Shown here: positions 54,201-57,200 of the stretch, one piece after another | Numbering within the stretch: position 1 is the stretch's first letter | Layout of the letters: every line of letters begins with the position of its first letter | Assembly (NCBI RefSeq): GCF_016026235.1 | Contig: NZ_CP065613.1 | Strand: one strand, 5' to 3' | DNA: 64,000 nucleotides | Source of the DNA: Escherichia coli | Lineage (GTDB): Bacteria; Pseudomonadota; Gammaproteobacteria; Enterobacterales; Enterobacteriaceae | Program-made: the position numbers

Positions 54201-57200
54201 TCCCCCTCTGGCGCAGCATTTGGTTCCGTGCTGGGGCTGATGGCATTTTTCTACTTCTTCGCCCGTTTGACGCTGTTTTGCGCGGCGTGGATTGCCACCG
54301 CCGAATATAAAGACGACCCGCGAATGCCGGGGAAAACACAGCCTTAAAACAGGCCGGATGCGGCGTACGAATTTATTCGGCCTGGCTCCCCGTAGGCCGG
54401 ATAAGATGCGCCAGCATCGCATCCGGCTATAATGCGCACATAACCTCTTGAAACTCTTCCCCAGAGCCTCTTCAGCCATCTATTTGGGAGCAAACAATTT
54501 CATTCCAACTCATAACCCCAGCATATAAATCCAGTTGGTAACTTTTATTTAACCTGAAACCAGTTTTATCCACCATTTATAAAATTATGTGAAGCATTTC
54601 ATAGAAGAAAAATCACTGGCCTAAACATTATCCCCTTTTTGCCTTATTTTTGACCATTTCCGCGATTTGTTACACATTGAAATATCACTTTTGCTGTGCG
54701 TAATATGGCTATTCGTTAGCCAAAAAATAAGAAAAGATTATGCAAGCAACAGCCACAACACTCGACCACGAGCAAGAATACACGCCGATCAACTCGCGTA
54801 ATAAAGTCCTTGTCGCCTCTCTCATTGGCACGGCCATTGAGTTCTTCGACTTTTATATTTACGCCACTGCGGCCGTTATTGTATTTCCGCATATCTTCTT
54901 CCCGCAGGGCGATCCTACGGCAGCAACGCTACAGTCGCTCGCCACCTTCGCCATCGCCTTCGTCGCGCGCCCCATTGGCTCTGCCGTATTTGGTCATTTT
55001 GGCGATCGCGTTGGGCGTAAAGCGACGCTGGTCGCCTCGTTGCTAACGATGGGGATTTCGACCGTGGTGATTGGTCTGCTGCCGGGCTATGCCACGATTG
55101 GTATTTTCGCCCCGCTGCTGCTGGCGCTGGCTCGATTTGGTCAGGGTCTGGGCTTAGGCGGTGAATGGGGCGGCGCGGCGCTGCTGGCGACTGAAAACGC
55201 CCCCCCGCGCAAACGTGCACTGTATGGCTCCTTCCCACAGCTGGGCGCACCGATTGGCTTCTTCTTTGCCAACGGCACTTTCTTGCTGCTTTCCTGGCTA
55301 CTGACCGACGAGCAGTTTATGAGCTGGGGCTGGCGTGTGCCATTTATCTTCTCGGCGGTGCTGGTCATTATCGGCCTGTATGTTCGCGTGTCGCTGCATG
55401 AGTCGCCGGTGTTTGAGAAAGTCGCTAAAGCGAAAAAACAGGTGAAGATCCCGCTGGGTACGCTGCTAACCAAACATGTTCGCGTAACCGTACTGGGTAC
55501 GTTCATTATGCTGGCAACCTATACGCTGTTTTACATCATGACGGTCTACTCTATGACCTTCAGTACCGCCGCCGCGCCAGTTGGGCTTGGCCTGCCGCGT
55601 AACGAAGTGTTGTGGATGCTGATGATGGCAGTTATTGGTTTTGGCGTGATGGTGCCAGTCGCCGGATTACTGGCTGATGCCTTTGGTCGCCGTAAAAGCA
55701 TGGTAATTATCACCACGCTGATCATCCTGTTCGCGCTGTTCGCCTTTAACCCGCTGCTCGGTTCTGGCAACCCGATTCTGGTTTTTGCCTTCCTGCTGCT
55801 GGGGTTAAGTCTGATGGGGCTGACCTTCGGGCCGATGGGCGCGCTGTTACCAGAGCTGTTCCCAACAGAAGTGCGTTACACCGGAGCATCGTTCTCTTAC
55901 AACGTAGCGTCGATTCTCGGGGCTTCCGTTGCGCCATATATCGCAGCCTGGTTGCAGACTAACTACGGGCTAGGTGCGGTGGGGTTATATCTGGCGGCGA
56001 TGGCTGGCTTGACGTTAATCGCCCTGCTGCTGACCCATGAGACGCGACATCAGTCGTTGTAATAAGAGTGAAAAGCCTGATGCGCTACGCTTATCAGGCC
56101 TGAATTTCCATACAATATATTGAATTCGCAAGGATTTGTAGGCCGGATAAGGCGTTCACGCCGCATCCGGCATGAACAAAGCACACTTTGCCAACAATCT
56201 AAATCTGTTTAATTGCCGGATGTCAGACATCCGGCAATTATCTTCACTTCTTCATCTGCGACAAAATCGTCCGGCACTGATTAGCCTCCCCTTCGGAAGG
56301 TGAGATCAGTGCCAGCAACGCTGCCGCTGGCGTAACCAGCGTTGCCAGTGCCGCAGCAACAGCACCACGGGCAATCAACGGTCCGGCTTTCACTCCAGCC
56401 TGCGGATTTTTAAACGTCCCACGCACATACAGCGGCGAACGCAGTGTGATAATCCGAATTCCTTTACTCTCCGGATCAATAGTCAAATCCAGCTGTTCCG
56501 AAGCAAAACTTGCCGTGCCGGTAACGTTAATCAACGCGTTCTCAGTATCGAAAGCAAAGATCTGCGGGCGCGCCACGCCGTTGGCAATATCCAGATTCGC
56601 CGCCGCGCAGTTCACCCGCACCTCATCATCACCAAATATCGCACCGACAATGTAGTTGCCGACATTCAGCCCAACAATCTCCATCAGGTTGCGGCTCACC
56701 AGCCCGTCATTCATCAACAGTTTCAGGTTGCCGTTACTGTTGCCTAAAAGCGCCGCCACCGAGTTACCGCTACCGCGTAGTTCCGCGTCACCGTTCATTT
56801 CCCCCAGCGTCTTCTGCATCAGTTCCACATCGGGCATCAGTTCTTTCAGTTTCAGTCGACGAGCCTGAATATCTGCCCGCCCCTGCATCGGCTTTTTATC
56901 GCCTTCCAGATGGATATTCGCCGCAATGCTGCCGCCCGCCATGCCAAATTTCAGCGGTTGCAGGCGCAGGTCAGCATTTTTGAGGATGATATGAGTAGAA
57001 AGATCGCTAATCGGCAGGCTACTGCCATGCTCAATGCGCCGCCCTTTGAAGCGAACATCGGCATCCATAACGTCCCATTTATCGGTTTCGAAGCGGTCAT
57101 AAGGCAGCACTTTGCCCGCAGGCTGAACGCTTTTTTCGCCCTTCTTCTGTTCAGACCGTTTCGACTTTTCTGCCCCTTTCCCGGAATCAACGCCAATCAA

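What the first reader, a model, noticed from the sequence alone, without database searches (positions are those of the whole stretch)
54350..56240. REP element clusters flanking yhjE
Multiple REP-type palindromes (GCCGGATGCGGCG... / GTAGGCCGGATAAG...) occupy both intergenic regions around yhjE. They account for the hairpin-rich structure there and should not be mistaken for mobile elements or terminators of novel function.
Basis: partly seen in the sequence, partly recalled or inferred. Interest (0 to 1): 0.1.

Follow-up and report, generated by a model that had tools for sequence, protein, structure and literature searches.

The report
Ordinary REP/BIME repeats flanking yhjE
The hairpins on both sides of the E. 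coli transporter gene yhjE are ordinary members of the well-known REP/BIME family of short palindromic repeats, apart from one single-copy hairpin that is not a REP, so nothing new in kind is present.

Summary
The window is E. coli, 100% identical to strain FDAARGOS_943.

**Upstream (54353-54427), starting 5 nt after the yhjD stop codon**
- A y-type inverted REP that has lost its 3' arm through an 18-bp deletion. 22% of complete E. coli genomes carry this allele.
- A 6-nt linker.
- A complete z2-like REP with the GTAG motif.

**Downstream (56075-~56200), starting 12 nt after the yhjE stop codon**
- A classic single-copy BIME-1 (also called RIP or RIB).
- Its parts are a z1 inverted REP, a 34-nt L linker with the family's IHF-type core, a y REP identical to the published consensus, and a conserved flank.

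**Fifth hairpin (56210-56240)**
- It is a perfect palindrome, single-copy in the genome, without GTAG or a bulge.
- It is not a REP. It is probably the native 3'-end hairpin of the convergent yhjE/yhjG pair.

**Population**
- Both spacers are polymorphic in E. coli. REP/BIME alleles alternate with BoxC (TMECO) alleles.
- The breakpoints lie at the stop codons.
- Other genera carry a plain hairpin upstream.

Verdict: already known, low interest.

The parts
53334..54347 (+). yhjD coding sequence (inner membrane protein). The stop codon TAA is at 54345-54347. The last sense codon (CCT, Pro) already lies in the strain-variable segment.
   Evidence: ORF list; RefSeq annotation of the 100%-identical record; allele alignments
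54353..54385 (+). U1: truncated y-type inverted REP (iREP). The 5' arm GCCGGATGCGGCG is intact. An 18-bp deletion has removed the loop and 3' arm. The tail is CTGG, not CTAC.
   Evidence: Alignment to K-12 and E. albertii, which carry the intact unit; consensus scoring 28/36 in the window against 32/34 for the K-12 form; 1220 of 5426 genomes share this short allele
54386..54391 (.). 6-nt linker CTCCCC between the two tail-to-tail units
   Evidence: Sequence; conserved in K-12, O157 and E. albertii
54392..54427 (+). U2: complete z2-like REP. It has GTAG at 54392-54395, 14-bp arms with the AA/GC internal mismatch, and a 4-nt loop. It carries a y-like G-C at stem position 4 and a compensatory C-G to T-A change relative to z2.
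   Evidence: 31/36 to z2; Rfam naRNA4 model positions 42-76 (the Z2 half), 30 bits, all pairs standard
54677..54706 (+). Promoter-like site of yhjE (TTGAAA-18-TAATAT). It lies downstream of the REP pair, inside a spacer segment conserved across Enterobacteriaceae genera.
   Evidence: Consensus scan; cross-genus conservation seen. Inference only.
54740..56062 (+). yhjE coding sequence (MFS transporter). The stop codon TAA is at 56060-56062.
56075..56103 (+). D1: z1-type iREP of the BIME-1. It is 27/27 identical to z1, but its tail is CTGA instead of CTAC.
56104..56137 (.). L linker of the BIME-1. It contains the family-invariant core CAATATATTGAAT and an IHF-consensus match with one mismatch, ATTCAATATATTG, at 56113-56125 on the - strand.
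   Evidence: Alignment with four other BIME-1/RIP copies; IHF pattern; Rfam ES036/CssrF, 32.5 bits against a gathering score of 37.6
56138..56171 (+). D2: y-type REP, 34/34 identical to the published consensus. GTAG is at 56138-56141.
   Evidence: Rfam naRNA4 Y half, 38.2 bits
56172..56200 (.). Conserved right flank of the BIME-1 family (ATGAACAAAGCRCACTTTGYCAACAATCT), shared with paralogous copies
   Evidence: Paralogue matches extend to query positions 171-175, i.e. window 56200-56204; alignment
56210..56240 (.). D3: perfect 15+15-nt palindrome (TAATTGCCGGATGTC a GACATCCGGCAATTA), 3 nt beyond the yhjG stop codon. It is not a REP. It is probably the native 3'-end or terminator-type hairpin of the convergent gene pair.
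   Evidence: -21 kcal/mol on either strand, z -6 to -8; one place per genome; no GTAG or bulge and poor consensus scores; compensatory T-A to C-G change in strain SCPM-O-B-8794 and a similar hairpin after yhjE in E. albertii
56244..58304 (-). yhjG coding sequence (AsmA family protein), convergent with yhjE

Best explanation
These are ordinary E. coli REP/BIME elements.

Upstream is a tail-to-tail pair of a y iREP and a z2-like REP (an atypical or BIME-2-like single pair). In this strain its first unit has lost its 3' arm through an 18-bp deletion. Downstream is a single-copy BIME-1 (RIP/RIB): z1 iREP, L linker with an IHF-type site, y REP and a conserved flank. It sits next to a locus-specific non-REP hairpin.

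Shown: sequence membership in the families, high copy number, hairpin stability, and presence/absence polymorphism among strains.

Inferred mechanism:
- The elements arrived and are remodelled as non-autonomous repeats. The RAYT/TnpA(REP) enzyme recognises GTAG plus the bulged stem, features that only U2 and D2 retain. Short-homology recombination also remodels them.
- Once transcribed, they form stable stem-loops in the 3' UTRs of yhjD (5 nt after its stop codon) and yhjE (12 nt after its stop codon).
- These stem-loops are expected to impede 3'->5' exonucleases and partly stop read-through into yhjE or antisense to yhjG.
- Because they lie within 15 nt of the stop codons, they may also damp translation termination of yhjD and yhjE.
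- The L linker is expected to bind IHF on DNA.
For: - Motif enrichment and stems.
- Consensus identities of 34/34 (D2), 27/27 (D1), 31/36 (U2) and 32/34 (the K-12 form of U1).
- Rfam naRNA4 and ES036 hits with correct pairing.
- End-to-end alignment with BIME-1 copies at cgtA-dacB, srmB-yfiE, entD-fepA and K-12 yaaX-yaaA.
- Family definitions (GTAG, imperfect palindrome, y/z1/z2 types, BIME-1 = z1 + y + L with an IHF site, single copy) from PMC3333891.
- Fold stability.
- Dual terminator/stabiliser role of a model REP, and 3'-UTR placement of REPs generally.
- The 15-nt rule for ribosome stalling (Liang 2015, as cited in PMC12306157).
- Dispensability and turnover. Upstream, 3573 genomes carry the long REP allele, 1220 the short REP allele and 601 a BoxC allele, out of 5426. 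Downstream, 3577 carry the BIME-1 and the rest mostly BoxC.
- Other genera have a plain hairpin at the upstream site.
Against: - No expression, termination, RNA half-life, IHF-binding or RAYT data were available for this locus, so every functional step is inferred from the family.
- The genome-wide study found no uniform effect of REPs on mRNA half-life.
- The elements are absent from 11-34% of E. coli genomes without loss of the flanking genes, which argues against an essential role.
- U1 and D1 lack the CTAC/GTAG motif, and U1 is truncated.
- The IHF consensus match has one mismatch, and that pattern is barely enriched in the window (88 matches against 70 expected).
- The simple terminator scan flags none of these hairpins.
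Confidence: 0.9

Rival explanations
1. Neutral, selfish repeats. The REP/BIME units are inert passengers at gene 3' ends with no cis effect on yhjD, yhjE or yhjG. They persist only because insertions between a stop codon and the next promoter, or between convergent genes, are harmless.
For: - Presence/absence and BoxC replacement polymorphism within E. coli.
- The upstream and downstream alleles assort independently: K-12 is REP/BIME-1, STEC711 is REP/BoxC and E686 is BoxC/BoxC.
- Decay is visible. U1 is deleted and D1's tail is mutated. The SCPM orthologue carries point mutations in both REPs.
- Other genera lack the elements.
Against: - The stems are thermodynamically strong and sit 5 and 12 nt after stop codons, where published work reports effects on translation and RNA decay.
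- Any transcribed hairpin of -20 to -45 kcal/mol is likely to influence 3'-end processing.
- This rival concerns only function; it does not dispute the identity.
Confidence: 0.35
2. A DNA-level architectural role. The BIME-1 acts mainly as an IHF-binding, DNA-bending site, and the REP stems act as gyrase or Pol I sites or cruciforms. Together they insulate supercoiling between the convergent yhjE and yhjG transcription units, rather than acting in RNA.
For: [quoted passage not shown]
- The invariant core is shared with four paralogues.
- The location is between convergent genes.
Against: - The IHF consensus match is imperfect and statistically uninformative.
- A recent study found no chromosome-compaction or long-range contact role for REPs.
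- One third of E. coli genomes lack this BIME-1.
Confidence: 0.2
3. The hairpins are something other than REPs: a novel mobile element, a MITE or novel terminators.
For: Only D3 (56210-56240) fails the REP tests.
Against: - Four of five units classify cleanly as y, z1 or z2 REPs, and the linker as BIME-1 L.
- D3 is single-copy and has no terminal repeats, target duplication or coding capacity.
- D3-like hairpins occupy the same place in E. albertii and Citrobacter.
Confidence: 0.02

Closest known systems
BIME-1, also called RIP or RIB (REP-IHF-REP element), of E. coli
   Same: The composition is a z1 iREP, an L linker of about 34 nt with the conserved core CAATATATTGAAT and an IHF-like site, and a y REP. 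[quoted passage not shown] It is 86-89% identical over about 130 nt to copies at cgtA-dacB, srmB-yfiE and entD-fepA.
   Different: The z1 tail is CTGA instead of CTAC, so that unit has no GTAG on the complementary strand. The IHF match has one mismatch, and binding was not tested.
BIME-2 and atypical BIMEs (y + z2 pairs, e.g. REP325/naRNA units)
   Same: The upstream pair combines a y iREP with a z2-length REP in inverse orientation, separated by a short linker. U2 matches the Z2 half of the Rfam naRNA4 model.
   Different: It is a single pair, not a tandem array. U2 is a y/z2 hybrid (CCGG rather than CCTG). U1 carries an extra half-unit in K-12 and is truncated by 18 bp in this strain. The S linker could not be compared because no consensus text was available.
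REPIN/RAYT (TnpA-REP, YafM) system
   Same: There are two inverted REPs able to fold into one long hairpin. U2 and D2 keep GTAG and the bulge, which are needed for TnpA(REP) binding.
   Different: No RAYT gene is adjacent. The presence of a RAYT gene elsewhere in this genome was not checked, and no activity was tested.
BoxC / PIT / TMECO repeats of E. coli
   Same: They occupy exactly the same two spacers in other E. coli strains. The repeat CCCTCGCCCCTTTGGGGAGAGGGTTAGGGTGAGGGG is identical to the TMECO 'A mm' entries in PMC4666352 Table 1.
   Different: This is a different repeat family, and it is not present in this window. It is relevant only as the alternative allele.

Membership tests
REP / palindromic unit (PU) | Imperfect palindrome of 20-40 nt able to form a stem-loop | tested here: met
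   U2, D1 and D2 form the expected stems. In this strain U1 keeps only its 5' arm and pairs either weakly with a downstream remnant or with U2.
REP / palindromic unit (PU) | Conserved GTAG tetranucleotide 5' of the stem foot (CTAC on the iREP strand) | tested here: met
   Met for U2 (54392-54395) and D2 (56138-56141). Not met for U1 (CTGG) or D1 (CTGA). Each cluster therefore has one fully canonical REP and one degenerate partner.
REP / palindromic unit (PU) | Internal mismatch or bulge in the stem (AA opposite GC) | tested here: met
   It is present in U2, D1 and D2 by inspection of the arms and in the Rfam structure lines. It is absent from D3, which is a perfect palindrome.
REP / palindromic unit (PU) | Match to the y, z1 or z2 consensus | tested here: met
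   D2 is 34/34 to y; D1 is 27/27 (28/30 including the tail) to z1; U2 is 31/36 to z2; the K-12 form of U1 is 32/34 to y and the window form 28/36. D3 has scores at or below zero.
REP / palindromic unit (PU) | Many dispersed extragenic copies per genome | tested here: met
D3 has one place per genome. All units lie outside coding sequences.
BIME-1 (RIP/RIB) | z1 and y units in inverse orientation separated by the long conserved L linker | tested here: met
   definition from PMC3333891.
BIME-1 (RIP/RIB) | IHF binding site in L | tested here: inconclusive
   ATTCAATATATTG matches WATCAANNNNTTR with one mismatch and is part of the family-invariant core. The pattern alone is barely enriched (88 against 70), and binding cannot be tested here.
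BIME-1 (RIP/RIB) | Occurs as a single copy at a locus, not tandemly amplified | tested here: met
   There is one z1-L-y unit between yhjE and yhjG.
BIME-2 | y + z2 pairs with an S linker, repeated in tandem | tested here: not met
   The upstream cluster has a y + z2-like composition but is a single pair with a partial extra half-unit. It is best called atypical or BIME-2-like. The S motif was not compared.
Rho-independent terminator (for D3, 56210-56240) | GC-rich stem followed directly by a U-tract | tested here: not met
   The stem is strong (-21 kcal/mol), but the tails are UUAUCUUC on the + strand and UUAAACAG on the - strand, and the scan does not call it. A 3'-end-protecting or weak bidirectional terminator role remains an inference.
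REPIN/RAYT substrate | A cognate RAYT (tnpA-REP) gene in the genome, and binding or cleavage at GTAG or CT sites | not tested
   No RAYT search was done in the window or the genome, and enzymatic activity cannot be tested with these tools.

The most novel reading that the evidence does not exclude
Both spacers flanking yhjE are dimorphic across E. coli. REP/BIME alleles alternate with BoxC/TMECO alleles, and the breakpoints lie within a few nucleotides of the yhjD, yhjE and yhjG stop codons. The most novel reading is that two unrelated palindromic repeat families repeatedly target or replace each other at the same stop-codon-proximal sites. That would point to a shared insertion or gene-conversion mechanism. 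It could also give the strains heritably different 3'-UTR regulation of yhjD and yhjE.
Probability: 0.12. Interest if true: 0.35.

Novelty: already known. Interest (0 to 1): 0.08.

Why it matters
It matters little beyond correct annotation. Labelling these hairpins as REP/BIME-1 stops them being mistaken for novel RNAs, terminators or mobile elements.

Three details could be useful:
- The stems lie 5 and 12 nt from stop codons, so yhjD and yhjE are candidates for REP-mediated translational damping.
- Natural REP, truncated-REP and BoxC alleles at one locus provide ready-made isogenic-style comparisons for testing what REPs do in 3' UTRs.
- The non-REP hairpin at 56210-56240 should be annotated separately.

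Tried and rejected
- I looked for the official K-12 REP numbering, but the RefSeq feature tables served here list no repeat_region features. This holds even at the yaaX-yaaA spacer, whose sequence is a z2-L-y RIP-type element. Prior annotation of this locus could therefore not be confirmed.
- The primary papers were not held: Liang 2015, Gilson 1991, and Boccard & Prentki 1993. Their content is used only as cited by papers that are held, or from my own knowledge (the names z1 and z2, and the A/B flank motifs).
- The RepRanger supplements contain no yhj entries.
- The simple terminator scan flagged none of the REPs or D3, so it gives no support for canonical intrinsic termination.
- The IHF consensus by itself is uninformative, with 88 matches against 70 expected.
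- I considered D3 as a 'symmetrised' REP. I rejected this because it is single-copy and lacks both GTAG and the bulge.
- I considered strict linkage of the upstream and downstream alleles as a yhjE cassette. STEC711 carries REP upstream and BoxC downstream, which rejects it.
- The GCCTGATGCG match at 1312 lacks the rest of a REP unit; only the first 11 nt of the z1 consensus align there. I treated it as a chance match.

Full report
**Identity of the window.** A 5.1-kb stretch around the finding is 100% identical to E. coli FDAARGOS_943. It is found in 5417 of 5426 complete E. coli genomes, mostly at 95-99% identity. The RefSeq annotation gives yhjD (53334-54347, +), yhjE (54740-56062, +; an MFS transporter) and yhjG (56244-58304, -; an AsmA-family protein).

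**Observation.** The quoted motifs are real and non-random.
- GCCKGATGCG occurs 6 times against 0.48 expected, and 4 of those lie in the two spacers.
- GGCCKGATAAG occurs 3 times against 0.05 expected, all three in the spacers.
- The inverted-repeat scan recovers the stems.
- The folds are far more stable than shuffled controls.

**Upstream spacer anatomy.**
- Five nucleotides after the yhjD stop codon comes U1 (54353-54385), GCCGGATGCGGCG|TACGAATTTATTCGGCCTGG.
- K-12 has GCCGGATGCGGCGTAAACGCCTTATCCGGCATAC here, an intact y-type inverted REP that is 32/34 identical to the consensus.
- The window lacks 18 bp (TAAACGCCTTATCCGGCA), which comprise the loop and the 3' arm.
- After a CTCCCC linker comes U2 (54392-54427), GTAGGCCGGATAAGATGCGCCAGCATCGCATCCGGC.
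- U2 has GTAG, 14-bp arms with the AA/GC mismatch and a 4-nt loop. It is 31/36 identical to z2.
- U2 aligns to the Z2 half of Rfam naRNA4 with every pair standard.
- As RNA, the U1 5' arm pairs with the U2 3' arm to give one long hairpin of -44.8 kcal/mol.
- The remaining ~310 bp up to the yhjE start codon contain no REP. They are conserved across genera and carry a promoter-like TTGAAA-18-TAATAT site.

**Downstream spacer anatomy.**
- Twelve nucleotides after the yhjE stop codon lies D1 (56075-56103), which is 27/27 identical to z1 but has the tail CTGA rather than CTAC.
- Next comes a 34-nt linker (56104-56137).
- Then comes D2 (56138-56171), which is 34/34 identical to the published consensus GCCGGATGCGGCGTGAACGCCTTATCCGGCCTAC.
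- In genomes that lack this allele, the best BLAST match is another locus at 86-89% identity over window 56073-56204.
- Fetching three of those loci (cgtA-dacB, srmB-yfiE, entD-fepA) and the K-12 yaaX-yaaA element gives an end-to-end alignment. It has the invariant linker core CAATATATTGAAT and a conserved ~28-nt right flank.
- This matches the definition of BIME-1: z1 plus y, a long conserved L linker that frequently carries an IHF site, and single copy at the locus (PMC3333891).
- The linker contains ATTCAATATATTG, one mismatch from WATCAANNNNTTR. It also matches Rfam ES036/CssrF at 32.5 bits against a gathering score of 37.6. IHF binding itself is untested.

**The fifth hairpin.** D3 (56210-56240) is a perfect 15+15 palindrome, 3 nt beyond the yhjG stop codon.
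- It shares only TGCCGGATG/CATCCGGCA with REPs.
- It lacks GTAG and the bulge, and it scores at or below zero against every REP consensus.
- It occurs once per genome.
- A cryptic-lineage genome (SCPM-O-B-8794) carries a compensatory T-A to C-G change in its stem.
- E. albertii and several Citrobacter genomes have a comparable lone hairpin right after yhjE.
- It is best read as the native 3'-end hairpin of the convergent pair. It has no canonical U-tract.
- One strain (100117) has a 64-nt deletion between the CATCCGGCA of D2 and that of D3.

**Population and comparative context.**

| Spacer | Allele | Genomes (of 5426) |
|---|---|---|
| Upstream | K-12 long REP allele | 3573 |
| Upstream | Window's short REP allele | 1220 |
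| Upstream | BoxC allele, no REPs | 601 |
| Downstream | BIME-1 + D3 allele | 3577 |
| Downstream | Mostly one or two BoxC elements and no D3 | remainder |

- The upstream BoxC allele diverges from the REP alleles inside the last yhjD codon.
- The BoxC sequence is identical to TMECO 'A mm' entries in PMC4666352 Table 1.
- The two flanks assort independently, since STEC711 has REP upstream and BoxC downstream.
- E. albertii has the intact y iREP plus an extra degenerate unit upstream. The long form therefore predates the window's 18-bp deletion.
- SCPM-O-B-8794 has a different 17-nt deletion between the TTATCCGGC and TTATTCGGC repeats.
- In one Citrobacter (strain R56) and in Enterobacter, Lelliottia, Leclercia, Pseudescherichia, Pseudocitrobacter and Superficieibacter, a plain GGGCTGA...TCAGCCC hairpin follows yhjD. 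Other Citrobacter genomes carry REP-type hairpins at that site instead. Various REP-like or BoxC-like elements sit between yhjE and yhjG.
- Palindromic units are a known major class of small variable segments in E. coli (PMC2884548).

**Mechanism.** Membership in the REP/BIME families, high copy number and polymorphism are shown. The rest is inferred.
- Origin and remodelling would be through RAYT/TnpA(REP), which needs GTAG and the bulge. Only U2 and D2 qualify.
- Short-homology deletions also remodel the elements.
- In cis, they would act as 3'-UTR stem-loops that partly terminate transcription and protect upstream mRNA.
- Because both clusters start within 15 nt of a stop codon, they may also damp translation (Liang 2015 as cited).
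- IHF may bind the L linker on DNA.
- The main rival is that they are neutral passengers. Their dispensability in 11-34% of genomes supports that view.

**Verdict.** Four refinements apply: a truncated first unit, an explicit BIME-1 classification, one non-REP hairpin, and the REP/BoxC allelic dimorphism. The statement that these are 'not mobile elements or terminators' should be softened.

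Noticed in passing
L004 743-860, L009 (reverse strand) 200-355 and L094 160-350; equivalent to window 54343-~54480 and 56063-56243: In other E. 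coli strains both spacers flanking yhjE carry BoxC/TMECO repeats instead of REP/BIME, and the breakpoints lie at the stop codons. The upstream BoxC allele is in 601 of 5426 genomes. The downstream BIME-1 allele is missing from about 1850 genomes, most of them apparently carrying BoxC alleles. The upstream and downstream alleles assort independently.
   Followed up: partly
window 54343-54347: The last codon of yhjD varies with the repeat allele. It is CCT (Pro) in the REP alleles, CGG (Arg) in the BoxC allele and in E. albertii, and AAT (Asn) in SCPM-O-B-8794. Repeat turnover therefore reaches into the coding sequence.
   Followed up: partly
window 22872-22967: This is a second BIME-1/RIP-like element in the opposite orientation. 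It has a degenerate iREP, an L-type linker with ATTCAATAAATTG at 22916-22928, and a z1 REP (GTAGGCCTGACAGGCGTAGCGCATCAGGCG). It aligns with the yhjE-yhjG BIME-1.
   Followed up: partly
window 12960-13035: An intrinsic-terminator-like hairpin with a T-run (ACGCCCGCATATGCGGGCGTTTTGCTTTTT) is followed by a degenerate y-type iREP remnant (…GCGTAAACGCCTTATCTGGCCTAC).
   Followed up: no
window 54440-54739: About 300 bp upstream of yhjE are strongly conserved across Enterobacteriaceae genera (e.g. GTAACTTTTATTTAACC, TGTGAAGCATTTCATAGA, TTGTTACAnATTGAAATnTC…GCTGTGCGTAATATGGC). The stretch includes a promoter-like TTGAAA-18-TAATAT site at 54677-54706. This suggests a conserved regulatory region or long 5' leader of unknown control.
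   Followed up: no
L093 (strain 100117), equivalent to window 56164-56227: A natural 64-nt deletion joins the CATCCGGCA of the y REP to the identical 9-mer in the D3 hairpin. It removes the BIME-1 flank and half of D3.
   Followed up: yes
L011 (E. albertii NBRC 107761) 2043-2190 and 3821-3860: E. albertii has three REP-like units after yhjD. It has no detectable yhjG within the 2.5 kb downstream of yhjE that was fetched. Only a D3-like hairpin (TTGCCGGATGCCTGGCATCCGGCAA) follows yhjE.
   Followed up: partly
L004 (strain E686) 1-748: yhjD is annotated as a frameshifted pseudogene in strain E686, one of the BoxC-allele strains.
   Followed up: no
window 53300-58400: Only 14 of 5472 matching records are at least 99% identical over this 5.1-kb stretch, and nearly all others are 95-99%. 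The source strain therefore carries an uncommon haplotype at this locus.
   Followed up: no
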